A stretch of DNA of 64,000 nt from Eledone cirrhosa (lineage: Eukaryota). This document shows, piece by piece, positions 1-59,137 of the stretch. The stretch is from NCBI GenBank assembly GCA_964016885.1, contig OZ024742.1, forward strand, positions 195,052,001 through 195,116,000, in the 5' to 3' direction. The notes beneath the pieces were generated by a model, which searched no databases, was not told the DNA's origin, and was given only the letters and a program-made list of their open reading frames with translations. Every line of letters starts with the position of its first letter. Positions within the stretch are counted from its first letter, which is position 1. A program made the position numbers and the translations under genes.

Positions 1-1923
1 ATTTATGCCATACGGTGTTAAGGCAACCACGTCACCTTTTTGTTCAACACTGACACAGGAACGATGTACTAGTTTCAAGCTTGTTAGCTATCATCAGCAC
101 CGTTTACCCATCTGCCAGATAGTTGAACGTTCAAAAGTATATACTTTCCTTATGAAAATTAACGGCTGAGCAGCCTAATTTGCATATTGAGTGAGTTAAA
201 TCGGTCAGGCATACCGAAAACGATAAATTGAAACAAAATGAAAACGAAATTTCATTTCTCACTCTTAGTATGGCACTTACTTAAATGTAAGTATGCATGT
301 ATACGTACATACATACATGTATACAGACGTACAGTAGCATGCACATATATATATATATATACACATATACATACATATGCATACAGGTACACATACATAT
401 ATGCACGTATCAGTTTAGCGGCGCTAACGTCGCTTTGTTCGTTTGTAAACAAACTGAACAGCCTGAATTTATGCCATACGGTGTTAAGGCAACCACGTCA
501 CCTTTTTGTTCAACACTGACACAGGAACGATGTACTAGTTTCAAGCTTGTTAGCTATCATCAGCACCGTTTACCCATCTGCCAGATAGTTGAACGTTCAA
601 AAGTATATACTTTCCTTATGAAAATTAACGGCTGAGCAGCCTAATTTGCATATTGAGTGAGTTAAATCGGTCAGGCATACCGAAAACGATAAATTGAAAC
701 AAAATGAAAACGAAATTTCATTTCTCACTCTTAGTATGGCACTTACTTAAATGTAAGTATGCATGTATACGTACATACATATATGTATACAGACGTACAG
801 TAGCATGCACATATATATATATATATACATATATACATACATATGCATACAGGTACACATACATATATGCACGTATCAGTTTAGCGGCGCTAACGTCGCT
901 TTGTTCGTTTGTAAACAAACTGAACAGCCTGAATTTATGCCATACGGTGTTAAGGCAACCACGTCACCTTTTTGTTCAACACTGACACAGGAACGATGTA
1001 CTAGTTTCAAGCTTGTTAGCTATCATCAGCACCGTTTACCCATCTGCCAGATAGTTGAACGTTCAAAAGTATATACTTTCCTTATGAAAATTAACGGCTG
1101 AGCAGCCTAATTTGCATATTGAGTGAGTTAAATCGGTCAGGCATACCGAAAACGATAAATTGAAACAAAATGAAAACGAAATTTCATTTCTCACTCTTAG
1201 TATGGCACTTACTTAAATGTAAGCATGCATGCATACGTACATACATATATGTATACAGACGTACAGTAGCATGCACATATATATATATATATACATATAT
1301 ACATACATATGCATACAGGTACACATACATATATGCACGTATCAGTTTAGCGGCGCTAACGTCGCTTTGTTCGTTTGTAAACAAACTGAACAGCCTGAAT
1401 TTATGCCATACGGTGTTAAGGCAACCACGTCACCTTTTTGTTCAACACTGACACAGGAACGATGTACTAGTTTCAAGCTTGTTAGCTATCATCAGCACCG
1501 TTTACCCATCTGCCAGATAGTTGAACGTTCAAAAGTATATACTTTCCTTATGAAAATTAACGGCTGAGCAGCCTAATTTGCATATTGAGTGAGTTAAATC
1601 GGTCAGGCATACCGAAAACGATAAATTGAAACAAAATGAAAACGAAATTTCATTTCTCACTCTTAGTATGGCACTTACTTAAATGTAAGTATGCATGTAT
1701 ACGTACATACATACATGTATACAGACGTACAGTAGCATGCACATATATATATATATATACACATATACATACATATGCATACAGGTACACATACATATAT
1801 GCACGTATCAGTTTAGCGGCGCTAACGTCGCTTTGTTCGTTTGTAAACAAACTGAACAGCCTGAATTTATGCCATACGGTGTTAAGGCAACCACGTCACC
1901 TTTTTGTTCAACACTGACACAGG

Positions 1924-1968
1924 AACGATGTACTAGTTTCAAGCTTGTTAGCTATCATCAGCACCGTT
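1924..1968 (-). ncRNA. Same hammerhead on the minus strand in the left palindrome arm (also 1458-1502, 992-1036, 526-570, 60-104)
   Basis: Exact reverse complement of 2602-2646. Confidence 0.88.
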
Positions 1969-2520
1969 TACCCATCTGCCAGATAGTTGAACGTTCAAAA
2001 GTATATACTTTCCTTATGAAAATTAACGGCTGAGCAGCCTAATTTGCATATTGAGTGAGTTAAATCGGTCAGGCATACCGAAAACGATAAATTGAAACAA
2101 AATGAAAACGAAATTTCATTTCTCACTCTTAGTATGGCACTTACTTAAATGTAAGTATGCATGTATACGTACATACATATATGTATACAGACGTACAGTA
2201 GCATGCACATATATATATATATATACATATATACATACATATGCATACAGGTACACATACATATATGCACGTATCAGTTTAGCGGCGCTAAACTGATACG
2301 TGCATATATGTATGTGTACCTGTATGCATATGTATGTATATATGTATATATATATATATATGTGCATGCTACTGTACGTCTGTATACATATATGTATGTA
2401 CGTATACATGCATACTTACATTTAAGTAAGTGCCATACTAAGAGTGAGAAATGAAATTTCGTTTTCATTTTGTTTCAATTTATCGTTTTCGGTATGCCTG
2501 ACCGATTTAACTCACTCAAT

Positions 2521-2528
2521 ATGCAAAT
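2521..2528 (+). promoter_or_regulatory. Octamer motif ATGCAAAT about 80 bp upstream of each satellite hammerhead
   Basis: Perfect octamer once per monomer. Function is inferred by analogy to snRNA-type promoters and newt satellite 2. Confidence 0.4.
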
Positions 2529-2601
2529 TAGGCTGCTCAGCCGTTAATTTTCATAAGGAAAGTATATACTTTTGAACGTTCAACTATCTGGCAGATGGGT
2601 A

Positions 2602-2646
2602 AACGGTGCTGATGATAGCTAACAAGCTTGAAACTAGTACATCGTT
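2602..2646 (+). ncRNA. Minimal type-I hammerhead ribozyme in the satellite monomer (plus-strand copies also start at 3068, 3534, 4000, 4466, 4932, 5398, 5864)
   Basis: AACGGTG-CTGATGA-T-AGCT-AACA-AGCT-T-GAAA-CTAG-TA-CATCGTT. Stem I AACGGUG/CAUCGUU, canonical core CUGAUGA...GAAA, stem II AGCU/AGCU, palindromic stem III ACUAGU, cleavage triplet GUA (cut after 2639). Confidence 0.88.
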
Positions 2647-5600
2647 CCTGTGTCAGTGTTGAACAAAAAGGTGACGTGGTTGCCTTAACACCGTATGGCA
2701 TAAATTCAGGCTGTTCAGTTTGTTTACAAACGAACAAAGCGACGTTAGCGCCGCTAAACTGATACGTGCATATATGTATGTGTACCTGTATGCATATGTA
2801 TGTATATGTGTATATATATATATATATGTGCATGCTACTGTACGTCTGTATACATGTATGTATGTACGTATACATGCATACTTACATTTAAGTAAGTGCC
2901 ATACTAAGAGTGAGAAATGAAATTTCGTTTTCATTTTGTTTCAATTTATCGTTTTCGGTATGCCTGACCGATTTAACTCACTCAATATGCAAATTAGGCT
3001 GCTCAGCCGTTAATTTTCATAAGGAAAGTATATACTTTTGAACGTTCAACTATCTGGCAGATGGGTAAACGGTGCTGATGATAGCTAACAAGCTTGAAAC
3101 TAGTACATCGTTCCTGTGTCAGTGTTGAACAAAAAGGTGACGTGGTTGCCTTAACACCGTATGGCATAAATTCAGGCTGTTCAGTTTGTTTACAAACGAA
3201 CAAAGCGACGTTAGCGCCGCTAAACTGATACGTGCATATATGTATGTGTACCTGTATGCATATGTATGTATATATGTATATATATATATATATGTGCATG
3301 CTACTGTACGTCTGTATACATATATGTATGTACGTATGCATGCATGCTTACATTTAAGTAAGTGCCATACTAAGAGTGAGAAATGAAATTTCGTTTTCAT
3401 TTTGTTTCAATTTATCGTTTTCGGTATGCCTGACCGATTTAACTCACTCAATATGCAAATTAGGCTGCTCAGCCGTTAATTTTCATAAGGAAAGTATATA
3501 CTTTTGAACGTTCAACTATCTGGCAGATGGGTAAACGGTGCTGATGATAGCTAACAAGCTTGAAACTAGTACATCGTTCCTGTGTCAGTGTTGAACAAAA
3601 AGGTGACGTGGTTGCCTTAACACCGTATGGCATAAATTCAGGCTGTTCAGTTTGTTTACAAACGAACAAAGCGACGTTAGCGCCGCTAAACTGATACGTG
3701 CATATATGTATGTGTACCTGTATGCATATGTATGTATATATGTATATATATATATATATGTGCATGCTACTGTACGTCTGTATACATATATGTATGTACG
3801 TATACATGCATACTTACATTTAAGTAAGTGCCATACTAAGAGTGAGAAATGAAATTTCGTTTTCATTTTGTTTCAATTTATCGTTTTCGGTATGCCTGAC
3901 CGATTTAACTCACTCAATATGCAAATTAGGCTGCTCAGCCGTTAATTTTCATAAGGAAAGTATATACTTTTGAACGTTCAACTATCTGGCAGATGGGTAA
4001 ACGGTGCTGATGATAGCTAACAAGCTTGAAACTAGTACATCGTTCCTGTGTCAGTGTTGAACAAAAAGGTGACGTGGTTGCCTTAACACCGTATGGCATA
4101 AATTCAGGCTGTTCAGTTTGTTTACAAACGAACAAAGCGACGTTAGCGCCGCTAAACTGATACGTGCATATATGTATGTGTACCTGTATGCATATGTATG
4201 TATATGTGTATATATATATATATATGTGCATGCTACTGTACGTCTGTATACATGTATGTATGTACGTATACATGCATACTTACATTTAAGTAAGTGCCAT
4301 ACTAAGAGTGAGAAATGAAATTTCGTTTTCATTTTGTTTCAATTTATCGTTTTCGGTATGCCTGACCGATTTAACTCACTCAATATGCAAATTAGGCTGC
4401 TCAGCCGTTAATTTTCATAAGGAAAGTATATACTTTTGAACGTTCAACTATCTGGCAGATGGGTAAACGGTGCTGATGATAGCTAACAAGCTTGAAACTA
4501 GTACATCGTTCCTGTGTCAGTGTTGAACAAAAAGGTGACGTGGTTGCCTTAACACCGTATGGCATAAATTCAGGCTGTTCAGTTTGTTTACAAACGAACA
4601 AAGCGACGTTAGCGCCGCTAAACTGATACGTGCATATATGTATGTGTACCTGTATGCATATGTATGTATATATGTATATATATATATATATGTGCATGCT
4701 ACTGTACGTCTGTATACATATATGTATGTACGTATGCATGCATGCTTACATTTAAGTAAGTGCCATACTAAGAGTGAGAAATGAAATTTCGTTTTCATTT
4801 TGTTTCAATTTATCGTTTTCGGTATGCCTGACCGATTTAACTCACTCAATATGCAAATTAGGCTGCTCAGCCGTTAATTTTCATAAGGAAAGTATATACT
4901 TTTGAACGTTCAACTATCTGGCAGATGGGTAAACGGTGCTGATGATAGCTAACAAGCTTGAAACTAGTACATCGTTCCTGTGTCAGTGTTGAACAAAAAG
5001 GTGACGTGGTTGCCTTAACACCGTATGGCATAAATTCAGGCTGTTCAGTTTGTTTACAAACGAACAAAGCGACGTTAGCGCCGCTAAACTGATACGTGCA
5101 TATATGTATGTGTACCTGTATGCATATGTATGTATATATGTATATATATATATATATGTGCATGCTACTGTACGTCTGTATACATATATGTATGTACGTA
5201 TACATGCATACTTACATTTAAGTAAGTGCCATACTAAGAGTGAGAAATGAAATTTCGTTTTCATTTTGTTTCAATTTATCGTTTTCGGTATGCCTGACCG
5301 ATTTAACTCACTCAATATGCAAATTAGGCTGCTCAGCCGTTAATTTTCATAAGGAAAGTATATACTTTTGAACGTTCAACTATCTGGCAGATGGGTAAAC
5401 GGTGCTGATGATAGCTAACAAGCTTGAAACTAGTACATCGTTCCTGTGTCAGTGTTGAACAAAAAGGTGACGTGGTTGCCTTAACACCGTATGGCATAAA
5501 TTCAGGCTGTTCAGTTTGTTTACAAACGAACAAAGCGACGTTAGCGCCGCTAAACTGATACGTGCATATATGTATGTGTACCTGTATGCATATGTATGTA

Positions 5601-6398
5601 TATGTGTATATATATATATATATGTGCATGCTACTGTACGTCTGTATACATGTATGTATGTACGTATACATGCATACTTACATTTAAGTAAGTGCCATAC
5701 TAAGAGTGAGAAATGAAATTTCGTTTTCATTTTGTTTCAATTTATCGTTTTCGGTATGCCTGACCGATTTAACTCACTCAATATGCAAATTAGGCTGCTC
5801 AGCCGTTAATTTTCATAAGGAAAGTATATACTTTTGAACGTTCAACTATCTGGCAGATGGGTAAACGGTGCTGATGATAGCTAACAAGCTTGAAACTAGT
5901 ACATCGTTCCTGTGTCAGTGTTGAACAAAAAGGTGACGTGGTTGCCTTAACACCGTATGGCATAAATTCAGGCTGTTCAGTTTGTTTACAAACGAACAAA
6001 GCGACGTTAGCGCCGCTAAACTGATACGTGCATATATGTATGTGTACCTGTATGCATATGTATGTATATATGTATATATATATATATATGTGCATGCTAC
6101 TGTACGTCTGTATACATATATGTATGTACGTATGCATGCATGCTTACATTTAAGTAAGTGCCATACTAAGAGTGAGAAATGAAATTTCGTTTTCATTTTG
6201 TTTCAATTTATATATATATATATATGTCCTTAAAACATTTTCAGCTGTTTTCATATTCCATTTCATTCAGGTACTGGACATGTATGTATGTTGTTTATGT
6301 TACGTCGCGTTTGAGCGCTACTGGTAACAGTGTAGCCCAGAACAATCTGTCAAATAATTGGATCGCTGACGACGAGACTGGTAACACAACCAAGCTTG

Positions 6399-7929
6399 GT
6401 TCATTTAACAGTTATCCTATACTACGAGCTGTCTCACCTATGTACACTATATTCTTATCTTTACATTGTCCTTCAGTACATCTTATGCTGTATACTATGT
6501 TTCTAGTTTTACAGTTAATATGGGGGCTTAGTTTACAGATTATGCATTTCTTATCTATACAGGGAGGTCTTTGAAAAGGGTATGTATTACTAATAACTGT
6601 TTTTATGGAGGTACCTGGTCTTTCTACTATCTTAATATTAAGTTTAAGTTTATCTAGGGCCCTTCTAAATGTGTAATTTAATTCACCTCTAGGGGTTGTA
6701 TTGATGAACATTACACTCTGGTATTTATTGCTTTCAAACCATGAGTTTATTCTATTAACCTTATTCCTAGTTCTTTCTATTCTATTCCAAAATGTCCTCC
6801 TATACAAGGGGCAGGTCCCATTTGTATCATTATTTACCATTTTTTACATTTGGTTCTGGCTTCTCCATATACTCTGATTTTATCTCTCTGATTGTAACCA
6901 GAGAACTGCATACGGTGGATGAAGTGTTGTATGTGTCTCTCTAGTTCTTTGGGGTTGCACATGCGGGACACGTTTCTCATCACCCGTACCAAATCCGCAA
7001 TCAGTATGTTGATTTTGGTGTGATCAGCTGAGTTTCGGTGGATCACATATTTGGAAGTCATGGGTTTGGCATAATGGGAATGGAGGATTTGGTTTTTGTT
7101 ATTATTGGTTTCTAACCAGAGCTCTGTGTCTAGTACAGGTAATTGATGGTTGGAGTGTTTGCTTGGGTAGTCTATAGTAACGCTAATACTCTGGTGGATG
7201 GAGTTAGCTATTTGCTGGATGCTTTCCATGGTGTTTTTATCTAATTCCTGACTGTTCTCTTGTGGGGGTGTTTTTACTACGATGTTTATATCATATAAAC
7301 AACGTAGCGAGAGTACATTATCAGGGTTAGGAGGTTGCTGTCTTCCAATTATTATTTAAGTTTATTGTTCCACCATACCATGAATAGGTTAGCTATGTCA
7401 CCTGCAATGCTAACACCAATTGCTGCTCCCTCCTCTTATGCAGATGTTTTTTCATAAAAATTTGAACATATATTCCTTAAGGGTTAGTTTTATACTGGTC
7501 CCCACAGCATGTGTAATCATTTTCTTTAGTTTATCGTGGTTTTCGCGGGTCCGTATGGCTCTGCGTCACCCGTTCCATCTATCTGTGTAGGTTTTCTTGG
7601 ACATTGAGGTAATGGAAGGTGGTCTGCCTCTTGCTGGTCTTGTGGGGCAGAGATTTCTAAGGTCATACGTATCTAGATAATCATTACTATAAGTAAGTTT
7701 AAGTAGGAGTCCCAGCTCACTGGTATCAATCCCACGGAATTCAACATTGCTCTCACTGATCATTTCTACGGATTTCTCCACAGCAAAATCCACGTCAATG
7801 GATGGATATAGGGACACAACATCCATACTACCTATTATACAGTCTGTTAGGTCCCTAGATCGGTTATTTTCGCTGATTCTGCTGAGGAGGTCCTCGGTGC
7901 TCTCACATATATCTAGTATAGCTAGATCT
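6399..7929 (-). mobile_element. Degenerate Penelope-like element 1: RT plus GIY-YIG endonuclease, frameshifted
   Basis: MDVVSLYPSIDV (RT motif A, 7566-7826), GAAIGVSIAGDIANLFM (motif B', about 7380-7430), LPVLDTELW...HYAKPMTS (6834-7229), CKTRNIVYSIRC...YIGETARS (GIY-YIG, 6412-6840). Confidence 0.85.
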
Positions 7930-8579
7930 AAAGACCTCCCTGTATAGATAAGAAATGCATAATCTGTAAACTAAGCCACCATATTAACTGTAAAACTAGA
8001 AACATAGTATATAGCATAAGCTGAAGGACAATGTAAAGATAAGAACATAGTGTACATAGGTGAGACAGCTCGTAGTATAGGAGAACTGTTAAATGAACAC
8101 TGGCGAGAGCTTCAAGATAGAAAAGAATCATCAATACTCCACCAACATGAACATAAGGGCAAATTAGAGAACATAGAAATAAAAATAAAATCTACACAGA
8201 GAAAAGACGCAATGTTTAGACAAATCACAGAGGCAATAAACATAAATGAACTCCAACCAAAATTAAATAGAAAACATGAATGGAACAGCAACATCACAAC
8301 TTACAATTAAGGACAAAATGAAAACACACGCACATAGAACAAACAACCAACCAGTCCAGTAACATGTAAATAAACAATTAAATAAACAAATAAAAATACA
8401 CACAGACACCCGGATGTAACACATGCGCAAACTAACCACACAACACACACAAAAACAAGATGGCGTAGGACAGAACAAAGAAAATAATCCCCAATTTTTT
8501 TTTTTTTTTATTTATAATAAATTGGAGTGAAACGCTGGTGAGTGTGTTTCTTATTGGCAACATGATCCTCCCAAAGTAT

Positions 8580-8585
<6 letters not shown>
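7930..8585 (+). mobile_element. Inverted 3' copy (pseudo-LTR) of PLE 1 with the GIY-YIG C-terminus
   Basis: 7930-8098 is the reverse complement of 6399-6572. ORF 8050-8310 reads YIGETARSIGELLNEHW...RQITEAININELQPKLNRKHEW. Followed by (TA)n. Confidence 0.8.
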
Positions 8586-8623
<38 letters not shown>

Positions 8624-8640
8624 TAGACTTGGTTCTCTGA

Positions 8641-8715
<75 letters not shown>

Positions 8716-9003
8716 ATTATGTAATAAACAACATAAGGCAATTATTCCATTTACCAGTGGTTTCTTAAAAGCAAAAGGTTTTGCTTTCAATCCTCAGAAT
8801 GAAAAATCCTGGTTTGTTTATTAAATATGGATTCTAAAAACAAAAATGCAATCTATATGAAAGTGAGGCTGGAAAAGGGAGAAGGAAAGGAAAAATAAAT
8901 TAAAACTACACATGCAAACACACACAAAAAAACACAAAAGCATACTTACACCCACATACATATATACACATATATATAAATGCACGCATACACATATACA
9001 TAT

Positions 9004-9034
<31 letters not shown>

Positions 9035-9126
9035 AAGAGCGTACACCTACACACACATACACATATATACACACATATACACATACATATATTCATACAT
9101 ACACACACACACACACACATATATAT

Positions 9127-9161
<35 letters not shown>

Positions 9162-9644
9162 TATATATACACATGTACATATCCATACATATATATATAT
9201 ACATACATATATACATATACACACATATACATACACACACACACACACACACACATGTGTGTGTACAAGCATACACATACACACACACATATATATATAC
9301 ACACACATATACATACATTCACACAAACATACAACGTACATACATACACATACATGAATGCACTCCACTACATATTAACACACGCAAATAAATATAAGAA
9401 CAAATATATAAATATATATTAACAAATTTTTGACAGCGATACATGCCCCAGCTAACAGGACAGACACGCGTGGTAAGTAATACACACATAAGTACATAAA
9501 CTTACGTTCGAAATAGTAAACACATACACACACTCTCACACATAAATATACATATACAAATACATAAACACGTACATACACATACATACACAAACACGTA
9601 CACGTATACAATATAAACACACACATGTATATGTAATTATATAT

Positions 9645-9713
<69 letters not shown>

Positions 9714-10297
9714 CAAAAATATAAAAATATAAACGCACACACACATATAAATACGTAAACACACATATACATACATAGCTAAACAATTATACACATGCAA
9801 ATACGTATATATCAAAAGAACGCACAACCAAATACAAGCACACACATATACACACACACACACCCACACACAAACCCACACATACATAAAAATAAATAAA
9901 TACACACGCACACATATACATACATACACATACATATACATATATACATATACATATACATATACATATATACACATATATATATAAATATATATATATA
10001 TACACACATACACGTACACATACACACATGCATACACATACACACACACATATACATGTGTGTATGTGTAAAGCTCAGTATTAGATAAGACAAATGAACC
10101 TTACATAAACGTATATATAGTAGTAAAGTAATAAAGCCATACAAGGCAATTAATCCATTCACCAGAGGTTTCTTAAAAGCAAAAAAAGTTTCCTTCAATC
10201 TTCAGAATGAAAAAAAGGCCTGGTTTATCCACATATACATACATATACACACACAAATATACAAATATATAAGCACATACAGACACGCACACACACA

Positions 10298-10331
<34 letters not shown>

Positions 10332-10625
10332 CAGACATATATACATACATATATATACACATACATATATATACATACATACATACATATATATATATAC
10401 ATACACAAACATATACGTACACATATACATATATACACACAAAAATACATACACATACACATAGGTATGTGAAGGGCAAAACAAAAAGAATATATAGGGG
10501 GGGGCTAAGAGGAGGTAACAATATAAGGGGAGGTAAGGGAGAAAACAATTTTAAATATACAAGAGTACAGAAGGTAGAAGCAGCAAAATAAAAACCGTAG
10601 CAAAAGTAAAGAGCAGAGAAGGAGT

Positions 10626-11447
10626 TCAAGGCGGTTGATTTATCGTAGGAGTGTCAATCCAGTTACAGATCAGATGCGATTTCAGATGAGGACAGCATCT
10701 GAAGATCTCAGTCTTAGAGTTAAGGCAAGCGGAAGTGTCTCTCAAGTTTAGCAAAATCCTATACTTTTCTGTGGTACACAAAGAACAATTCTTTGTGCCC
10801 CTTTGGTACTCCCTCGAATGGTCTAATATAGACCAATCAATAGAGTACGGGATATTACTATCCTTGAGATCCCATACCTTACTTGCGAGGGCCGTTGATG
10901 TTCGTTTATCTGAGTGTTTAAAAGAAGCGACATGTGAGTAAAATCTGGTTTTAAACCTGTCCTGGGTTATACCGACATATCGCTCGCTTCTGGCTGGCTG
11001 GTTGTTGATAACTGGCGTTATTTTAGCCTCATAAACGACAGATTTTGTGTTACATTTACCCTGCAATGGGCATTCATCCGGCTTCCTGCAACTGCATCCT
11101 GGATTTATCCTCGTACGGTTTGAACTGGTGATTTTGGACTTCATGGATGGGCAACAAGAGTAGCTGATCTTAACTACATTCCTATTAAAAATCTTATAAT
11201 ATCTATGAATAGGAGGAAAATGTTTGTCTAATAGTTCAAGGAATTTCCTTCCTACATTAGTTTTGACATTTAGAGAGAAGGGGGGTGTGAACCAAATAAT
11301 CTTCCTTTTCCTGTTATTATGGTTAGTTTTAGGGGGGGGGGGGGGAGTAGGTAAATAAGAAATATTTTCTGTAAAACCGCTGTTCTTAAGGGCTTTATTA
11401 TAATAAGGGGCGGCTTTATTAAAAATGTCTATAGACGAAGATAAGGT
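10626..11447 (-). pseudogene. PLE 2 C-terminal ORF fragment (RT thumb end, linker, GIY-YIG endonuclease)
   Basis: FNKAAPYYNKALKNSGF...RKRKIIWFTPPFSLNVKTNVG...CSCRKPDECPLQGKC...VVYEAKI...YVGITQDRFKTRFYSH...CSLCTTEK...LNSKTEIFRCCPH; 5'-truncated. Confidence 0.85.
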
Positions 11448-11448
11448 A

Positions 11449-12021
11449 TATAAGATTTTTAATAGGAATGTAGTTAAGATCAGCTACTCTTGTTGCCCAT
11501 CCATGAAGTCCAAAATCACCAGTTCAAACCGTACGATGATAAATCCAGGATGCAGTTGCAGGAAGCCGGATGAATGCCCATTGCAGGGTAAATGTAACAC
11601 AAAATCTGTCGTTTATGAGGCTAAAATAACGCCAGTTATCAACAACCAGCCAGCCAGAAGCGAGCGATATGTCGGTATGACCCAGGACAGGTTTAAAACC
11701 AGATTTTACTCACATGTCGCTTCTTTTAAACACTCAGATAAACGAACATCAACGGCCCTCGCAAGTAAGGTATGGGATCTCAAGGATAGTAATATCCCGT
11801 ACTCTATTGATTGGTCTATATTAGACCATTCGAGGGAGTACCAAAGGGGCACAAAGAATTGTTCTTTGTGTACCACAGAAAAGTATAGGATTTTGCTAAA
11901 CTTGAGAGACACTTCCGCTTGCCTTAACTCTAAGACTGAGATCTTCAGATGCTGTCCTCATCTGAAATCGCATCTGATCTGTAACTGGATTGACACTCCT
12001 ACGATAAATCAACCGCCTTGA
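11449..12021 (+). pseudogene. Inverted second copy of the PLE 2 GIY-YIG endonuclease region
   Basis: ORF 11425-12021 is nearly identical to 10626-11144 (two amino-acid changes in the shared part). Confidence 0.85.
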
Positions 12022-12318
12022 ACTCCTTCTCTGCTCTTTACTTTTGCTACGGTTTTTATTTTGCTGCTTCTACCTTCTGTACTCTTGTATATTTAAAATG
12101 TTTTTCTCCCTTACCTCCCCTTATATTTTTACCTCCTCTTAGCCCCCCCCCCCCATATATTCTTTTTGTTTTGCCCTTCACATACCTATGTGTATGTGTA
12201 TGTATTTTTGTGCGTATATATGTATATGTGTACGTATATGTTTGTGTATGTATATATATATATGTATGTATGTATGTATATATATGTATGTGTATATATA
12301 TGTATGTATATATGTCTG

Positions 12319-12354
<36 letters not shown>

Positions 12355-12442
12355 TATGTGTGTGTGCGTGTCTGTATGTGCGTATATATTTGTATATTTG
12401 TGTGTGTATATGTATGTATATGTGGATAAACCAGGCCTTTTT

Positions 12443-12500
12443 TTCATTCTGAAGATTGAAGGAAACTTTTTTTGCTTTTAAGAAACCTCTGGTGAATGGA
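12443..12500 (+). ncRNA. Second, degenerate hammerhead of PLE 2 (mirror 10154-10211, minus)
   Basis: CTGAAGA...GAAA-CCTCTGG-TG-AATGG; paralogue of 13843-13901 with a GUG site and a damaged stem II. Confidence 0.6.
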
Positions 12501-12942
12501 TTAATTGCCTTGTATGGCTTTATTACTTTACTACTATATATACGTTTATGTAAGGTTCATTTGTCTTATCTAATACTGAGCTTTACACATACACACATGT
12601 ATATGTGTGTGTGTATGTGTATGCATGTGTGTATGTGTACGTGTATGTGTGTATATATATATATATTTATATATATATGTGTATATATGTATATGTATAT
12701 GTATATATGTATATATGTATATGTATGTGTATGTATGTATATGTGTGCGTGTGTATTTATTTATTTTTATGTATGTGTGGGTTTGTGTGTGGGTGTGTGT
12801 GTGTGTATATGTGTGTGCTTGTATTTGGTTGTGCGTTCTTTTGATATATACGTATTTGCATGTGTATAATTGTTTAGCTATGTATGTATATGTGTGTTTA
12901 CGTATTTATATGTGTGTGTGCGTTTATATTTTTATATTTTTG

Positions 12943-13019
<77 letters not shown>

Positions 13020-13488
13020 ATATAATTACATATACATGTGTGTGTTTATATTGTATACGTGTACGTGTTTGTGTATGTATGTGTATGTACGTGTTTATGT
13101 ATTTGTATATGTATATTTATGTGTGAGAGTGTGTGTATGTGTTTACTATTTCGAACGTATGTATATGTGCTTATGTGTGTATTACTTACCACGCGTGTCT
13201 GTCCTGTTAGCTGGGGCATGTATCGCTGTCAAAAATTTGTTAATATATATTTATATATTTGTTCTTATATTTATTTGCGTGTGTTAATATGTAGTGGAGT
13301 GCATTCATGTATGTGTATGTATGTACGTTGTATGTTTGTGTGAATGTATGTATGTGTGTGTATATATATGTGTGTGTGTATGTGTATGCTTGTACACACA
13401 CATGTGTGTGTGTGTGTATGTATATGTGTGTATATGTATATATGTATGTATATATATATATGTATGGATATGTACATGTGTATATATA

Positions 13489-13552
<64 letters not shown>

Positions 13553-13610
13553 AATATATGTATGTGTATATGTGTGTATATATGTGTATGTGTGTGTAGG
13601 TGTACGCTCT

Positions 13611-13642
<32 letters not shown>

Positions 13643-13842
13643 ATATGTATATGTGTATGCGTGCATTTATATATATGTGTATATATGTATGTGGGTGTAA
13701 GTATGCTTTTGTGTTTTTTTGTGTGTGTTTGCATGTGTAGTTTTAATTTATTTTTCCTTTCCTTCTCCCTTTTCCAGCCTCACTTTCATATAGATTGCAT
13801 TTTTGTTTTTAGAATCCATATTTAATAAACAAACCAGGATTT

Positions 13843-13901
13843 TTCATTCTGAGGATTGAAAGCAAAACCTTTTGCTTTTAAGAAACCACTGGTAAATGGA
13901 A
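13843..13901 (+). ncRNA. Hammerhead ribozyme in the PLE 2 pseudo-LTR (mirror copy 8745-8803, minus)
   Basis: TTCATT-CTGAGGA-TTGAAAGCAAAA-CC-TTTTGCTTTTAA-GAAA-CCACTGG-TA-AATGGAA. Stems I, II and III all pair; GUA cleavage site. Confidence 0.8.
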
Positions 13902-14014
13902 TAATTGCCTTATGTTGTTTATTACATAATAATAATAATTAAGCTCTGTTGCATACATAGAGCACTCTTTTTCCCTGGACTTTTCCGATGGAATTACTTC
14001 ATTCACACATATAT

Positions 14015-14111
<97 letters not shown>

Positions 14112-14242
14112 GATAAATCTACCAAGAGTTTACGGTAGTGTCCAATCCGTATGAAGAACTCAATGTAATCCGGATATCATGGAAAGAAGAGATGCAATGA
14201 AAAATCACTTTCGGTGAAAGATAAACGGAATACAGAGTCAAG

Positions 14243-14350
14243 ATAAAATATTAAAAAAATAATGAATAAAACAATGAAACAGTTCCTTATATTAAACAAA
14301 AAAAGTTCAATATAAGGAACTGTTTCATTGTTTTATTCATTATTTTTTTA

Positions 14351-14359
<9 letters not shown>
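14243..14359. repeat. 51-bp perfect inverted repeat with a 15-bp loop
   Basis: 14243-14293 is the reverse complement of 14309-14359; followed by (TA)n. Confidence 0.9.
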
Positions 14360-14449
<90 letters not shown>

Positions 14450-14490
14450 GTTAAACAAGGTTCAACGTATAAATCAAAGAATGAGTTTTA

Positions 14491-14733
14491 CAACATCCAT
14501 ACTACCTATTATACAGTCTGTTAGGTCCCTAGATCGGTTATTTTTGCTGATTTTGCTGAGGAGGTCCTCCGTGACTGAATCTTAACCATCTATTATGTCA
14601 GTGTATGTCTTGTATCATCTTATTTATCTGATGAGGACGTACTGTTGAAGTTAACTCAGTACCTCTGAAATATGTTTAATAAAATATACTTCATCACAAG
14701 AATATCTATTTTGTTAATATTTTGAATTAATAT

Positions 14734-14735
<2 letters not shown>
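14491..14735. mobile_element. Short PLE insertion: 82-bp antisense RT piece of the PLE 1 family joined to a hammerhead-like motif (about 14621-14688, plus)
   Basis: 14491-14572 matches 7818-7899. Then CTGATGA-GGAC-GTACTG...CAGTAC-CTCT-GAAA-TATGTT. (TA)n tracts on both sides. Confidence 0.6.
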
Positions 14736-14782
<47 letters not shown>

Positions 14783-14785
<3 letters not shown>

Positions 14786-15170
14786 TAAACGGAATAGAAA
14801 ATGCTGACAAATTGTTCACAGTTGAAAAATGGTTTAATTAGGAATAAAAGAGTATTAGTGATTGTATGGGTTAGTATTCAGTTGTGGTTTTAAGTTTTTA
14901 AGTTTTTACCGGTTGCGCATTTCTAAATGCTTTTTAAAAATAATTTTGAGATAGAGATATAAATAGAGGTGTGACACACGAGTTGTGACATGTTAGTAAA
15001 AAGGAAAAGAAAATGCTAACAAATTTTTCCCAGTGAAAAATAGTTTAATTAGGAATAAGTATAAATTAGTAATAAGTATCAGTTAGTATTCAGTTTTAGT
15101 TTTAAGTGTTTACCGGTTGCGCATTTCTTATGTTTTTCAAAAATAATTTTGAGATAGAGTGCTCGTGATC
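14783..15170 (-). repeat. Tandem pair of a roughly 200-bp repeat family (also 23844-24174) with a hammerhead-variant motif
   Basis: Shared AATGCTGAC...TTTAATTAGGAATAA...TACCGGTTGCGCATTTCT...TTTTGAGATAGAG. Confidence 0.7.
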
Positions 15171-15771
15171 AGTTTTGGAAATTCTTTCTGTTTTATGTGA
15201 AAAAAGTGTCTTGGGAGGTATTACAATTTGGTTGGTTGTTGAATGTCACATGAATAAGCACTATAAATTTCGTGCCAATTCGTGTTGCAAAAATTCTTGT
15301 AGTCAAATAATTTTGATTGGTCGGTAGAAATCACGTGAATGTTTAAATTGATTTTAGCGCGAACTGGTTTCGCGCCAAATGTAGGTTTGTCGAAGAGTGT
15401 CCTTTTCCGCTTGATTGAGTTGCAGTTATGTTGAGAGGTCAACAGTTCAGGTGTCTATTAAGACAAATATGTGTGTGTGTGTGTGTAACAAAGTGGTTCA
15501 TTGATGTGATAATGGAAATGAATCGGTCAGTACACACACACACGCGCATGCACACGCGTACACTAACATACAGACAGACAGACACACACACACACACACA
15601 CACACACCCACACACATACACACTTCTCCGTATAAGACAAAAGCTGAAAAATATGTTTCAACATGTTAAAATACACACACACCCCTCCCTCCCGCACACA
15701 CACACACACGTACACACACGTACACACACATTCCTACTGACCGATTCATTTCCATTATCACATCAATGATA

Positions 15772-16460
15772 GGCACAAGGCTAGTAATTTGGAGGGAGGG
15801 GAAAGTCGATTAAATCGACCCCAGTACGTTACTGGTGCTTTATTTTATCGACCCCTTAAAGATGAAATGCAAAGTTAACCTCGGCGGGATTTGAACTCAT
15901 ACTGCAAAGGGCCATAACTCTATGCTACAAAGCAAGGTGTCCGACTCTCTACCGATACTGCCAATCCACCGCCCTTGTATGTGTATATAACTGTTTCTAC
16001 TTTTGGCACAAGGCCAGCAAAAGCCAGTGCATTACTGGTACTTTATTTTATCTACCCCGTAAGGATGAAAGGCAAAGTTAACCGTACAGGGACGTAACTA
16101 TGCTGGAAAGCATGGCGTCCGACCTTCTACTGATACTGCCATATCACATTATATATGTACGTAACATTCTAATTATATATACATCACACTCTATGTATTT
16201 ATAACATTATCATTATATATACACCACACTAAATATGTATGTAACATTATAATTATATATATATTACACTGTATGAGTATATAACTGTTTCTACTTTAAG
16301 CACAAGGCCAGCAATTACTCAGTACATTACTGGTACTTTATTTTATCGACCCCGTAAAGATGAAAGGCAAAGTTAACCTCGGCGGGATTTGAACTCAGAC
16401 TGTAAAGGGACGTAACTATGCTAGAAAGCATGGCGTCCAACCCTCTACCTATACTGCCAA
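15772..16460 (-). mobile_element. Three copies of tRNA-derived SINE family A (about 15772-15974, 15995-16140, 16290-16460)
   Basis: Reverse complement of the head GGGCGGTGGATTGGCAGTATCGG (box A) and GAGTTCAAATCC (box B), with core CTTTCATCCTTACGGGGTCGATAAAATAAAGTACCAG. Confidence 0.85.
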
Positions 16461-25453: not shown

Positions 25454-25617
25454 GATAAGTCGAAAAAAAGTATCAGTCCAGTATTGGGTTTGATTCTTCC
25501 TCTATAGAATAAATGAACTGTGTTCAGACATGGAGATAGTTGGGCTCCGCCAGGTTTAAAAGTGTCCTAGACACGCCATTTGACGGTGCCTTTACCCTTT
25601 TATTATTATATATATAA

Positions 25618-25805
25618 TGGCAGTGGATTGGCAGTATCGGTAGAGAGTCGGATGCCATGCTTTCCAGCATAGTTACGTCCCTTTACGATCTGAGTTCAAA
25701 TCCCGCCGAGGTTGACTTTGCCTTTCATCCTTACGGGGTCGATAAAATAAAGTACCAGTAATGCACTGGGTAATTGCTGGCCTTGTGCCTAAAGTAGAAA
25801 CAATT
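25618..25805 (+). mobile_element. SINE family A
   Basis: Box A/B head, core, GGCCTTGTGCCTAAAGTAGAAACAATTAT tail. Confidence 0.9.
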
Positions 25806-26704
25806 ATATATATATAGTTGTGTGGTTGTGGGTGGGTGTTGATGTTTGTTTGATCTGTAAGCTAGAAGTTCGGTAATAAGAGAACATTTAATTAAGTACG
25901 AGACTTGAAAAATAATTAGTTCTTATATCAATATGTTCGACTAAATCCATCATAGCGATGCTCCAGTATGTCCGCAGTCTGTTTACTCAAACAAGTAGAA
26001 GTCTATTTCGACTATTTTCAAACTTAAAACCACTAAAAAGTATTATAAATACATATTAACCCTAACGACGTGTTTATTGCAATTATTGCTGTTGCTGTTG
26101 CTGTTGCTGTTGCTTTCGTTGTTGTTGCTTCTTTTTATGTTGTTAAAGATTAAAGCATATTCTGATTATACTAATCTGCTAATGGAAGCTTTTCCCGCGG
26201 GAGAAGTTTTTCCTGGCAATGTTTTAAGACTTCAACACGGTATTAGTAGTGATACTTACATGTTAAGGACTTGCTTTAATTAGAATTGTTGCCAAAAATG
26301 TATTGTTTGTTCTGTACATTACACATTTTCTGTGTGTATGCATTTCAAAATAGGTAAACAATATCCTTACAAGTCATAAGATGTGGTTAATATTGTTGGT
26401 ATCAAGAAGGGTATTTGGTTGTAAAACATTTCTTCAAAGAGGGTTACAGGATGAGCGTAAAGCCTATCGTGAGATGTGGAAGGCTAACTCCTGTTTTAGG
26501 AGTGAAATGACAATAAAATGTTTTCTGATTTAGACACAACGCCAACAATTTTTGAGGGACGAGAAAATCAATGAAATCAAATTCAGTGCATGACTGGTAC
26601 TTTATGTTATCGACCTCGCAAGAAAGAACGAAGATAAACACTGAAGACATGGTTCGTTGATAGATTGATATGGGCAAGTTAAAAGAATAACACAGGGTAA
26701 ATTT

Positions 26705-32561: not shown

Positions 32562-32752
32562 AGGCGGTGGATTGGCAGTATTGGTAGAGTGTCGGATGCC
32601 ATGCTTTGGCGCATAGAGTTACGGCCCTTGCCATTCTGAGTTCAAATCCCGCCGAGGTTAACTTTGCCTTTCATCCTTACGGGGTCGATAAAATAAAGTA
32701 CCAGTAATACACTGGGTAATTGCTGGCCTTGTGCCTAACGTAGAAACAATTA
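32562..32752 (+). mobile_element. SINE family A
   Basis: Full head, core and tail. Confidence 0.9.
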
Positions 32753-33219
32753 TGTGTATGTGTTGATGAAGGTGTGGATGGGTAAACCTGATAGAGCTTC
32801 GGTTATAATGACATTGCGGTATTTATTCTGGCTCTTGCATTCTGTGTTCAAACCCCACCAAGCCTTTCATTTTCCCGGAGTCGATGAAGTAAGGTATAAA
32901 TGAAATACTGAGTTGATTTAATCAACTTCACATATCCCACGAATTTGCTGGCTTAATGCCGGAATTAGAAATCAATATACGTGTATAAGTTATATAAGTT
33001 TATATGTTCTATAAAATGATAGCGTTGTCCAAGATAAACAGTGCCTGAAAATTAGATAAAATTATCAGTTTTAGAAGCCAGGTTTATCTGGAACAAACAA
33101 TAGCCATAGCAATAACAACTACCATAACAACAATTGATTTTAGTGCAGACTTGAAACCTAACCACACACTCAGCTCCGACTGAGCTTATATTGCGATTGC
33201 TGGCTAATTTTGACAACAT

Positions 33220-35008: not shown

Positions 35009-35289
35009 ACTTGTTCTTCTTTTTGGTAAATATCATCTTGGTTAAGAGAGTGGGACTGGCTTTGTGCAGTGCCCATGCTCACTATAAAAGCTTCACGGCA
35101 CAGGCATTGCTTTATATCTGGAGATCTCTCTGCACTTGTCGTCACATGGTACCATGGGCCCAAGACTATGTGTCAATAATTGTCACAAGTGTAGTGTTTG
35201 TACCAGAGTTTACAAGTCGCATCGGTAGGGGTTCTCCTACATGGATATAAAGTAGTGGCCGTACTCGAAAACGAGTTGGCAGCCACCAT
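35009..35289 (+). mobile_element. Truncated copy of the bipartite RTE-derived element
   Basis: Reverse complement of part of 39438-39750 with a short internal deletion; TATG-type tail. Confidence 0.85.
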
Positions 35290-36240
35290 GTATATATCTA
35301 TGTATGTACGTATGTATATATGTATGTACGTATGTGTGTATGTATGTACGTATGTATGCATGTATGTATATATATAACTATATATGTACGTGCGTGTGTG
35401 TGTAAGGATTAATTATGTAACCAAGTCAAAACGTTCTCCGTGGTCTTATTTTCCTGATGGCTAACTCTAACATTTTTCTATGGTTTCACACCTAATACAA
35501 CATTACATTACTTGTTCAATAACGTTTGTTCATGATGTCGTTCTTATTTTATTTATTACACATTTATACTTCTACTTTTTTAAATCAACTGAATAAAAAC
35601 ACTGTTGCTTTGGGGAACTTCTTTACAAATATTTCAAGAAACCATCATGATTGACGAAAATGATGTTCAAAATGGTTGCCAGAAGTTGAAAAATCTTCTG
35701 CTGTTGGAAAGGAGTATTTTAGCAATGTGTTTGTGTTTGTTTAGTTGGATGTTTGTAGTAGTTTGTTTCTTTTGATTGCTTTTTTTTGTATACCTCAACT
35801 TACTTCTGCTCGAATGATTAAACATCTTCACTTGCTTACCGTTTCTATGATTTCGTTTTCATAAAGGAAAAAGGCTGGATAAAGAATAAAAAATATCACA
35901 TAAGCTGTCAATGCTATATTAACAGCGAAAATAGAATCCTTTCTTATCTTTCAGAGTGGTTAGCTAAAACTATTCTTTTCTTTTATGATGTGAAATTTAA
36001 ACGGAATGAAAGCTATAGAAAGAACCGATGCGCAATGTGTTAAGAAGGATGAGTACAGAATGGGTAACATTCAGACTTAAGCTGAAATGAGGCTTGAAGG
36101 AAAAAGGAAAAGAGTTGCCTAAAGAAACTGTTTCTTTAGCAGTTCGATTAATAAATACTATGATTTAAAAAGAAAATAATTCAATTAAATAGTAATCAAT
36201 CAATAAATAAATAAACACAAACGCACAGACTATATAGATA

Positions 36241-36577: not shown

Positions 36578-36922
36578 GAATATATATATATATATATATA
36601 TACATAGAGAGAGAGAGAAAGAGAGAGAGAGAGATAATGTAAGTGTGCATATATATATGTGTATATGTATGCCTCTATGTATATATGTTGGTTGTGTGGG
36701 TATGTATATCTATATAATCATACACACAGACATATTTTATCGATCACTATTTCATAGATTCGCAAACTTTTACGGTTTTATAACAGTAAACAGAAACAGA
36801 AACATCTATATACAAACATATATACATACAAACATACATCATACATACATAAATGCATACATACATCATACATACATGCATACATACAAACATACATACA
36901 AACATACATACATACATACATA

Positions 36923-37335
36923 CATGGTGGCTGCCAACTCGTTTTCGAGTACGGCCACTACTTTATATCCATGTAGGAGAACCCCTACCGATGCGCTGAA
37001 CGAGTGTGACTTTTTAGTCCAGCCAGCGACTTGAAAACTCTGGTACAAACACTACACTTGTGACAATTACTGAAACATAGTGCTGGGCCCATGGTACCAT
37101 GTGACGACAAGTGCAGAGAGATCTCCAGATATAAAGCAATGCCTGTGCCGTGAAGCTTTTATAGTGAGCAAAGGCATTGCACAAAGCCAGTCCCACTCTC
37201 TTTACCAAGATGATATTTACCAAAAAGAAGAACAAGTCAACATGATTGGATACCATCAGGGTTGCAGGTGTTATATCAGAGTTTTCCTTCTCCTAGAATT
37301 CTGCCTTGACAAAGGCTAAGGGGTCATCTCTCCCA
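36923..37335 (-). mobile_element. Bipartite RTE-derived element, 5'-truncated, within (CATA)n
   Basis: Nearly identical to 39438-39842. Confidence 0.88.
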
Positions 37336-37394
37336 TACATACATACATACATACATACATACATACATACATACATACATACATACATACATAC

Positions 37395-39240: not shown

Positions 39241-39437
39241 ATCCACACATACAATAACATCCATATCTACACATGCATGCATACATACATATCTACCTAG
39301 TTGATGTTGTGTAAATTCCAATGAGAGAGTCTTGTGTCTATGTTAGAAACCGACTCTCTCTCTATTGGTAAAACTTTGTGAAATTATAAAACCAGAAGAA
39401 CATACATATATACATACGTACATACATACATTCATAC

Positions 39438-46490: not shown

Positions 46491-46532
<42 letters not shown>

Positions 46533-46539
46533 GTAATAA

Positions 46540-46724
46540 TTGTTTCTACTTTAGGCACAAGGCCAGCAAATATTCAGTGAATTACTGGTACTTTATTTTA
46601 TCGACCCCGTAAGGATGGAAGGCAAAGTCAACCTCGGCGGGATTTGAACTCAGCTCGTAAAGGGACGTAACTATGCTGGAAAGCATGGCGTCCGACCCTC
46701 TACTGATACTGCCAATCCACCGCC
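46540..46724 (-). mobile_element. SINE family A (another copy at 47478-47672)
   Basis: Full core and head ending CCAATCCACCGCCC. Confidence 0.9.
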
Positions 46725-51110: not shown

Positions 51111-51126
51111 GTGTTATTATTGGTGA

Positions 51127-51320
51127 GGGCGGTGGATTGGCAGTATCGGTAGAGGGTCGGACGCCATGCTTTGCAGCATAGAGTTACGGCCCTTTATGAT
51201 CTGAGTTCAAATCCCGCCGAGGTTAACTTTGCCTTTCATCCTTACGAGGTCGATAAAATACAGTACCAGTAATACACTGGGATAATTGCTGGCCTTGTGC
51301 CAAAAGTAGAAACAATTATT
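51127..51320 (+). mobile_element. SINE family A
   Basis: Full head, core and tail. Confidence 0.9.
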
Positions 51321-51542
51321 ATTAGCTCTAGTAGTGGTAGTAGTAGTAGTAATCTTGCTTTTATTTCGCTTTATCATTGCATTACCAAACACAGCTTTCT
51401 ACGCCATAGGTATCTACAGTGTGAGTTTTGATGGTGTGTTTGTAGTATACTGAGTGTTTGTAAAATGGGTGCAGTGCGTAGTACAGCTATTTTTTTAATG
51501 CTATATATATATTTGTAAGACCTGGAGTTCTGGTTACCTTTC

Positions 51543-58801: not shown

Positions 58802-58918
58802 GATATCATTTATTAGCCACAAGACCCGACATGTAGGTATTATTATTAATGAACTGGGTAATTGCTGGCCTTGTGCCAAAAGTAGAAACAATTATTATTA
58901 TTATTATTATTAGGATAT

Positions 58919-59104
58919 AGGGCGGTGGATTGGCAGTATCGGTAGAGGGTCGGACGCCATGCTTTCCAGCGTAGTTACGTCCCTTTACGATCTGAGTTCA
59001 AATCCCGCCGAGGTTGACTTTGCCTTTCATCCTTACGGGGTCGATAAAATAAATTACCAGTAATGCACTGGGTAATTGCTGGCCTTGTGCCTAAGGTAGA
59101 AACA

Positions 59105-59137
<33 letters not shown>
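58919..59137 (+). mobile_element. SINE family A with an (ATT)n tail, directly upstream of the LINE
   Basis: Full element followed by (ATT)n to 59137. Confidence 0.9.

What the first reader, a model, noticed from the sequence alone, without database searches (positions are those of the whole stretch)
238..6196. Exact trimeric higher-order period suggests rolling-circle copying of a 1398-nt template
Seen: three monomer variants (A: CATACATGTATAC; B: CATATATGTATAC; C: AAGCATGCATGCATAC) cycle strictly A-B-C-A-B | B-A-C-B-A-C-B-A-C with no drift. Inference: this fits rolling-circle reverse transcription of a trimeric circular RNA (or rolling-circle replication of an eccDNA) in one recent event; unequal crossing-over of a trimer is the alternative.
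Basis: partly seen in the sequence, partly recalled or inferred. Interest (0 to 1): 0.75.

Follow-up and report, generated by a model that had tools for sequence, protein, structure and literature searches.

The report
Ribozyme repeat with frozen trimer period
This is a young array of a self-cutting RNA repeat (a known kind of animal mobile element) whose three slightly different units recur in a fixed order, with changes that look like RNA editing, so it may be a DNA record of an edited RNA circle that was copied round and round into the genome.

Summary
A 466-bp unit fills 1-6211 in three variants, with no mismatch at a lag of 1398 (0 of 2528 bases in the right arm). The left arm is an exact mirror about base 2285, so it is not a second witness. 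Each unit carries a type I hammerhead ribozyme (13 motifs; Rfam match below threshold), which makes this a non-LTR retrozyme. It ends in (TA)n beside Penelope-like fragments. Rolling reverse transcription of retrozyme circles is already the published model. That fits ADAR editing of a trimeric RNA that was then copied at least 2.8 times round. It is not proven. Random DNA duplication of one trimer keeps the period in 12-15% of simulations, two sites may be one event, and no RNA, long read or second locus was available. Trimeric RNA circle about 0.45; with editing about 0.3.

The parts
2286..6211 (+). Right arm: 8.4 units of 466 bp = 2.81 turns of the 1398-bp trimer, ribozyme sense on +
1..2284 (-). 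Left arm: exact mirror of the right arm, ribozyme sense on -, runs off the window
   Evidence: 2284 of 2284 bases
2279..2291 (.). Inversion point: a 13-base inverted repeat that every unit already holds (unit position 106-118); central base 2285 is that of the left-arm pattern
5864..5908 (+). Type I hammerhead (example copy): stem I 5864-5870/5902-5908, core CUGAUGA 5871-5877, U.U at the base of stem II, stem II 5879-5882/5887-5890, GAAA 5892-5895, palindromic stem III ACUAGU 5895-5900, predicted cut after A5901. Cores also start at 2609+466k on + (8 in all) and at 97, 563, 1029, 1495, 1961 on -
   Evidence: Rfam HH9 18.5 bits against a gathering score of 52, E 0.03
3572..4037 (+). Unit B, cut site to cut site: the majority state at all four variant sites
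2640..3105 (+). Unit A: A>G at unit positions 169 and 217 (window 2808, 2856)
3106..3571 (+). Unit C: A>G at unit positions 233 and 241 (window 3338, 3346)
3692..3806 (+). Long AU-rich RNA hairpin of the unit (unit positions 121-235, shown for unit B); holds sites 169 and 217; site 233 lies at its end, 241 in the next small hairpin
6207..6225 (+). Right junction: the array ends at unit position 310, not at the ribozyme cut, and runs into a short (TA)n tract; the last letters TAT could belong to either
6412..7970 (-). Broken Penelope-like element in the flank (RT-like and GIY-YIG-like frames); a candidate kind of helper, not part of the array
   Evidence: motif reading recalled; Pfam gave no RT or GIY-YIG hit

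Best explanation
A non-LTR retrozyme array placed here recently by the machinery of a Penelope-like element. Steps: (1) a source array of this subfamily is transcribed into a multimer [inferred]. (2) Its weak hammerheads (one-pair palindromic stem III, U.U at the base of stem II) cut only now and then, freeing a three-unit RNA that a host ligase closes into a 1398-nt circle [inferred from the family's behaviour]. (3) Four adenosines in or beside the AU hairpin differ as G, two in each of two units, most simply through A-to-I editing of that RNA [pattern shown, cause inferred; about 0.6 given the circle]. (4) The reverse transcriptase, primed at a nick in (TA)n, passes round the circle several times and so repeats the edited trimer exactly [period shown, mechanism inferred]. 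(5) The growing cDNA switches template at the unit's own 13-base inverted repeat and makes the mirror arm [geometry shown]. The central G at 2285 fits either a snap-back of a cDNA primed from the left, or a switch of a right-primed cDNA onto the strand made one turn earlier; it does not fit a simple snap-back of a right-primed cDNA.
For: Period exact, 0 of 2528, in phase up to the last base at 6211 with no out-of-phase remnant on that side. Hammerhead in 13 of 13 places where the motif's position lies in the window. Unit folds at -153.6 kcal/mol against -109.2 +/- 4.7 for 40 shuffles. 4 of 4 variants A>G on the ribozyme strand. Polarity: in run X1, A holds 96.9% of summed depth at 6134 and 99.7% at 6142, and G holds 1.2% at 6118. 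A>G is 4 of 28 other family variants, giving 0.0004 for four events or 0.003 for three; composition models give 0.00015-0.0035. 3 of 4 sites predicted paired (0.98, 1.0, 0.77). All units share 5835T, where X1 has C at 99.8%, so they come from one source lineage. The inversion centre falls on an in-unit inverted repeat that folds as a DNA hairpin at a strand end. Literature: multimeric retrozyme RNAs up to trimer in axolotl and circular dimers in vitro (PMC7229834); inverted 5' copies and (TA)n targets of Penelope-like elements (PMC8557442); a purified Penelope-like protein nicks AT-rich DNA, extends both strands and starts inside the RNA (PMC11167929).
Against: No circle, transcript or editing was observed. 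Random DNA duplication of a single trimer gives a perfect nine-unit period in 12.5-15.4% of runs. Sites 233 and 241 together turn the stretch into a perfect (ATGC) run and may be one slippage or conversion event. All four sites lie in low-complexity sequence, where mutation is not uniform. The A>G pattern was noticed after the fact; any one transition four times has 0.001-0.015, three times 0.008-0.05. The 5' U at 4 of 4 sites is uninformative (31 of 38 A in that region have it). Site 233 is predicted unpaired (0.01). Site 169 was not covered. G also occurs at 6118 and 6134 in 1-3% of X1 depth, so these may be standing variants or stray microsatellite matches. In vitro the Penelope-like protein mainly uses uncut linear RNA and starts internally (PMC11167929), so the junction at position 310 does not show a circle. 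In axolotl the multimers ran at linear sizes (PMC7229834). Neither the inversion junction nor the flank junction was listed in any of 4 runs laid (that stretch was partly skipped as repeat).
Confidence: 0.45

Rival explanations
1. DNA-level growth: a short retrozyme insertion (about three units, already differing by ordinary mutation or by editing of a linear trimer) was enlarged in place by unequal exchange, slippage, break-induced replication or re-entry of a 1398-bp DNA circle; the inversion came from a fold-back during repair.
For: 12.5-15.4% of random duplication histories from one ABC trimer, and 2.5-7.4% from five distinct units, give a perfect nine-unit period. One rolling event on a DNA circle gives it always. 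Local tandem expansion by unequal crossover is the model discussed for these repeats in 10.64898/2026.07.22.740005 (Discussion).
Against: Gives no reason for four strand-matched A>G changes unless they were first written on RNA. Units are 99.1-99.6% alike, so offsets of one or two units should be as easy as three. From a B array with two mutant units among seven, 0 of 200,000 runs gave the period in either setting (the model stops at nine units, so this start has little room). No out-of-phase remnant at the right end.
Confidence: 0.22
2. Retroposition of a long, uncut, linear transcript of another array that already had the trimer period. The insertion is RNA-mediated, but the period was made earlier, by whatever route.
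For: Unprocessed RNA was the main substrate and priming was internal for a purified Penelope-like protein (PMC11167929). The monomeric hammerhead fold is weak here (-2.3 against -9.8 kcal/mol for the best fold), so uncut multimers are expected.
Against: It only moves the origin of the period to the parent. Editing of a linear transcript would add non-periodic A>G, and there is none in 2528 compared bases. The array's marker 5835T makes up at most 0.2% of summed X1 depth, so a large parent array is not apparent in that run, which may be another individual.
Confidence: 0.2
3. Technical artefact. The mirror arm is a fold-back chimera of library preparation kept at a contig end, or the number of turns was set by an assembler walking a loop.
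For: The palindrome is perfect and reaches base 1 of the window; whether that is a contig end is unknown (no genome held). Such chimeras also centre on short inverted repeats (recalled). No joint was listed.
Against: Two neighbouring inversions of Penelope-like type have diverged arms (95.6% over 2677 bases, 94.8% over 174), so real inversions occur here. Read errors or collapse would not create three haplotypes in a fixed order; the unit family itself is abundant in run X1 (6134 records laid). The confidence given is for the period being false; the mirror alone being false is about 0.15 and would leave the rest standing.
Confidence: 0.08

Closest known systems
Metazoan non-LTR retrozymes (Cervera and de la Pena 2020, PMC7229834, parts 2-4 of 6 read; Li et al. 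2026, 10.64898/2026.07.22.740005, parts 1-3 of 5 read)
   Same: Non-coding tandem unit under 50% GC with a type I hammerhead in each unit, strongly self-paired, beside Penelope-like elements. Stem III as in the axolotl Amex1 motif and U.U at the base of stem II as in Amex2. The proposed life cycle is reverse transcription of a circle into tandem cDNA.
   Different: The parts read describe monomer circles in vivo as the template. They report no fixed higher-order period of variants, no strand-biased A>G in genomic arrays and no mirror arrays. RNA editing is named once as a possible source of circRNA heterogeneity in mussel. The unit (466 bp) is slightly above the 150-450 range of the first paper, inside the 51-972 range of the second.
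Penelope-like element insertions with an inverted 5' copy (Craig et al. 2021, PMC8557442, passages; Frangieh et al. 2024, PMC11167929, parts 1-3 of 4)
   Same: Two copies joined 5' to 5' with 3' ends outward; AT-rich or (TA)n target; start inside the RNA.
   Different: No protein is encoded. The junction is a symmetric 13-base palindrome without spacer, whereas the Penelope-like inversion at 8584-14108 has a 250-base unmirrored middle.
circRNA-derived pseudogenes (Dong et al. 2016, PMC4897178, two passages)
   Same: Genomic copies that keep a mark of a circular RNA template.
   Different: There the mark is a back-splice junction of a host gene; the word 'rolling' does not occur in the main text. 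Here the mark would be a repeated variant order.
Higher-order repeats of satellite DNA such as alpha satellite (recalled)
   Same: A multi-unit period that is more uniform than its monomers.
   Different: Those monomers differ by tens of percent and the arrays are old and long. Here monomers differ at 2-4 of 466 bases and there are under three turns per arm.

Membership tests
non-LTR retrozyme | Tandem units of a few hundred bases | tested here: met
   466 bp, 4.9 and 8.4 copies
non-LTR retrozyme | Type I hammerhead in every unit | tested here: met
   13 motifs with full core and stems I-II; Rfam HH9 aligns on the core but at 18.5 bits, below its gathering score of 52
non-LTR retrozyme | GC under 50% and a strongly self-paired RNA | tested here: met
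   168 of 466 G+C; z = -9.5 against 40 shuffles
non-LTR retrozyme | No protein, no LTR, PBS or PPT | tested here: inconclusive
   Only stop-to-stop frames of 81-114 aa over low-complexity sequence, not searched further; PBS and PPT not looked for
non-LTR retrozyme | Self-cleavage, as monomer or dimer | not testable with these tools
   Monomer fold is weak; the palindromic stem III suggests the dimer form (PMC4209133, passages)
non-LTR retrozyme | Expressed as linear and circular RNA | not testable with these tools
   No run on record as RNA was available to lay
non-LTR retrozyme | Many dispersed loci, with target-site duplications | tested here: inconclusive
   A large varied family in run X1, but no second locus; left end outside the window
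non-LTR retrozyme | Penelope-like elements in the same genome | tested here: met
   Frames at 10626-11483 and 6834-7355 resemble clusters with GIY-YIG (26-28% of members) and HTH_animal (17-45%); six minimal hammerhead-like motifs elsewhere. Pfam itself gave no such hit; clade not determined
Penelope-type inverted insertion | Inverted 5' copy next to the main copy | tested here: met
Penelope-type inverted insertion | AT-rich or (TA)n target | tested here: met
   Right end only
Penelope-type inverted insertion | 30-40 bp tail at one end | not testable with these tools
   Left end outside the window; no genome held
ADAR-edited template | A>G on the transcribed strand | tested here: met
   4 of 4; family allele A at 3 of 3 sites covered, 1 not covered
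ADAR-edited template | Sites in double-stranded RNA, not after G | tested here: inconclusive
   3 of 4 paired; 5' U at 4 of 4 but at 31 of 38 A in the region; preference from PMC6651903, passages
ADAR-edited template | RNA-DNA differences at the same sites in the same individual | not testable with these tools
   No matched RNA and DNA
classical satellite higher-order repeat | Strongly diverged monomers in a long old array (recalled) | tested here: not met
   2-4 differences in 466; under three turns per arm in view

The most novel reading that the evidence does not exclude
The array is a DNA record of one RNA molecule: a three-unit retrozyme circle, edited A-to-I at four sites and then reverse-transcribed round and round into the germ line, with a template switch onto the previous turn or a snap-back making the mirror arm. 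Young arrays would then each have their own n-mer period set by their template circle. RNA editing would feed heritable variation into the element, and higher-order repeats could be born in one RNA-templated step.
Probability: 0.3. Interest if true: 0.72.

Novelty: new variant of a known kind. Interest (0 to 1): 0.52.

Why it matters
Rolling reverse transcription of ribozyme-made circles has been proposed for Penelope-like elements since 2014 and for animal retrozymes since 2020, but the papers read give no in vivo trace of it; a 2026 preprint says it has only limited evidence on the life cycle. A monomer circle would leave identical units, which look like any young satellite. A marked multimer leaves a countable period. 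If other young arrays show private periods with A>G skew, the model can be tested from assemblies alone. It would also show edited RNA being written into the genome and a one-step route to higher-order repeats. If not, this is an ordinary young retrozyme array.

Tried and rejected
No whole genome is held, so other loci, the left end and the source array could not be read. No other copy of the unit lies in the window; blast hits beyond 6250 were to the low-complexity part only (40 rows shown). Rfam over 1-16000 gave 371 matches; the 150 shown were all below their gathering scores, mostly microRNA models on TA/CA repeats, and were rejected. Sequencing runs: no RNA holder listed. Of 24 runs, 4 were laid. 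No joint was listed in any of the 4, but repeats at 6049-6099 and 6185-6233 were skipped and contigs are short, so this decides nothing. A conservation argument for the ribozyme (1 variant row in 5869-5900, in loop II, against 11 rows in 5835-5868) was dropped because 5902-5957 has no row either. Pattern scans: 0 matches, then 32 metagenome and 7 viral loci with a looser pattern; 0 of 39 resembled the unit. Three look-ups of earlier findings gave nothing. The junction at unit position 310 was considered as proof of a circle and rejected, because internal priming on linear RNA is published. The central base at 2285 was considered as proof against a library artefact and rejected, because a hairpin read can be laid either way round. 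Literature: 0 papers held all of higher-order repeat, hammerhead, satellite, reverse transcription, circular RNA. 0 held all five terms on edited RNA retrotransposed into genomic copies. Of 20 listed for retrozyme, ADAR, A-to-I, one cancer review held the word retrozyme once (listing only). Searches listed nothing on this pattern by title or abstract start. Two papers were not held (PMC5785218, PMC5850863). Supplements were not read (those of the bioRxiv preprint are closed) and may hold array alignments that bear on novelty.
Full report
Observation. Bases 1-6211 are a tandem array of a 466-bp unit in two arms. Spacing is 466 at all 11 intervals measured. The 95% upper bound on divergence between turns is 0.12%, so the event is recent. 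Two corrections matter. The left arm is an exact reverse complement of the right about base 2285 (2284 of 2284 bases), so it adds no independent evidence for the period: there are 2.81 turns in one arm. And variant A has two private sites, like C; B is the majority state.

What the unit is. Each unit holds a type I hammerhead: stem I of 7 pairs (one G.U), CUGAUGA, a U.U pair and 4 pairs in stem II, GAAA, a palindromic ACUAGU stem III and a cut site after UA. There are 8 on + in the right arm and 5 on - in the left. Rfam aligns its HH9 hammerhead model to the core, but below threshold (18.5 bits against 52, E 0.03 on 211 bases), so the assignment rests on the hand-read structure. The unit is 36% GC and folds far better than shuffles (z -9.5, 40 shuffles), chiefly through an AU-rich hairpin at unit positions 121-235. 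The monomeric ribozyme fold is weak (-2.3 against -9.8 kcal/mol for the best fold of the same 46 bases). This is what is described for animal hammerheads that work as dimers (PMC4209133, passages; PMC7229834). These features define a non-LTR retrozyme. Public run X1 holds a large family of related sequence (6134 records laid, 1327 of them 99% alike or more). The species was not determined; the window is animal-like DNA rich in microsatellites.

Ends and surroundings. The right arm stops at 6211, unit position 310, and runs into a short (TA)n tract. Beyond it lie broken frames with reverse-transcriptase-like and GIY-YIG-like motifs (motif reading recalled). Pfam named none of five frames as such; the Atlas placed two near clusters with GIY-YIG in 26-28% or HTH_animal in 17-45% of members, which is a lead. 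Two of these neighbours are inverted structures with diverged arms (8584-14108, 95.6%; 6399-8098, 94.8%). An inverted 5' copy and (TA)n targets are described for Penelope-like elements (PMC8557442, passages). A purified one nicks AT-rich DNA, extends both strands, starts inside its RNA and mostly uses uncut RNA (PMC11167929).

The inversion point. It lies on a 13-base inverted repeat present in every unit (position 106-118), the only short-loop hairpin of five or more pairs between positions 86 and 168, though such centres are common around 169-184. A strand ending there folds a five-pair hairpin in its best structure, which is weak (z -0.5). The central base is G on +, the letter of the left-arm pattern. 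A cDNA primed at the right flank that simply snapped back would have left C there. Two routes fit. Either the cDNA was primed at the left and snapped back, the right arm being the copy. Or it was primed at the right and switched onto the strand made exactly one turn (1398 bases) earlier, which on a circle lies at the growing point and keeps the mirror phase. The second predicts a left end within about 244 bases upstream of the window, the first at least 1642. Both are inference. A library fold-back at a contig end cannot be excluded by this base.

The variants. Read on the ribozyme strand, all four are A>G against the majority: positions 169 and 217 in A, 233 and 241 in C, all within 73 bases (chance of such clustering 0.014 if uniform). 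In run X1 the family has A at 6134 (96.9% of summed depth) and 6142 (99.7%), and G at 6118 in 1.2%; site 169 lay in a skipped repeat. So G is the derived state at 3 of 3 sites covered. Among the 28 other variant rows in the unit, 4 are A>G (2 of 9 in the hairpin end), giving 0.0004 to 0.002 for four events and 0.003 to 0.011 for three (I left out the array's own three rows, and rows near 6100-6145 include stray microsatellite matches). Three sites are predicted paired, one is not. This is the pattern A-to-I editing would leave after reverse transcription. Against it: the pattern was seen after the fact; the region is low-complexity; the two C sites complete an (ATGC) run and may be one event; the 5' U context is shared by 31 of 38 adenosines there. 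All units also share 5835T, where X1 has C at 99.8%: an ordinary change that shows one source lineage.

How it most likely arose. If the G letters were written on RNA, the edited stretch must afterwards have been copied at least 2.8 times, and a circle is the simplest template for that. Weak ribozymes supply multimers: axolotl tissues show dimers and trimers, at linear sizes, and RtcB makes circular dimers in vitro (PMC7229834). I put a trimeric RNA circle at 0.45, and the editing at about 0.6 within it. The period alone is weaker evidence than it looks: random tandem duplication of one ABC trimer up to nine units keeps it in 12.5-15.4% of 200,000 runs, and from five distinct units in 2.5-7.4%. 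DNA-level growth, including a DNA circle, gets 0.22. Copying of a long uncut transcript of an already periodic parent gets 0.2. A false period gets 0.08.

What could not be shown. No genome is held. No RNA run was available. Of 4 runs laid, none listed the inversion or flank joint, in stretches partly skipped as repeat. Pattern scans found no relative. So circle, cleavage, editing, parent array and left end are all untested.

Comparison and novelty. The element is a member of a known kind, and the rolling model is published (PMC4209133, PMC7229834, PMC7761336 passages). A 2026 preprint ties animal retrozymes to Penelope-like repeats and discusses local expansion by unequal crossover (10.64898/2026.07.22.740005). 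In the parts read and in ten searches I found no report of a fixed multimer period or a strand-biased A>G mark in such arrays; the library lacks most subscription papers and I read no supplements. I rate it a new variant of a known kind, interest 0.52: one locus and four sites, but with a cheap genome-wide test of a standing hypothesis.

Noticed in passing
window 8584-14108: Inverted pair of 2677 bases, 95.6% alike, with GIY-YIG-like frames (10626-11483 on -, 11407-12021 on +), an unmirrored middle at 11199-11448 and (TA)n at both outer ends: a Penelope-type inverted insertion.
   Followed up: partly
window 6399-8098: Broken Penelope-like element on - with a 174-base inverted copy of its endonuclease-like part (94.8%).
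   Followed up: partly
window 14628 +, 25120 +, 28269 +, 28139 -, 25350 -, 54804 -: Minimal hammerhead-like motifs unrelated to the array; 28139 and 28269 stand on opposite strands 130 bases apart.
   Followed up: no
window 39422-41029, 36886-37371, 35009-35373: A second tandem, period 590, joined by (CATA)n, with a further copy and an inverted copy. Neighbouring units differ at 8 of 590 and 9 of 410 bases by mixed kinds of change; my hammerhead pattern did not match it.
   Followed up: partly
window 25600-25807, 32563-32783, 46531-46743, 51126-51324, 58901-59114 and others: A dispersed repeat of about 200 bases with a dozen or more copies, about 85-94% alike among the closest.
   Followed up: no
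window 5868, 5885, 5958 in run X6: In X6 (organism A, kind not on record) one form dominates: A at 5868 (76% against 0.5% in X1), T at 5885 (96% against 53%), C at 5958 (76% against 22%). The change at 5868 turns the G.U pair of stem I into A-U.
   Followed up: no
window 5746-5834 in run X1: One record jumps back from 5834 to 5746 with 17 letters between, which suggests a shorter tandem unit of about 106 bases in the family (table 5c).
   Followed up: no
L002 596-864; L012 1145-1642: Tandem repeats of period 145 and 207 in two metagenome loci fetched by the loose pattern; neither overlaps its pattern match nor resembles the unit.
   Followed up: no
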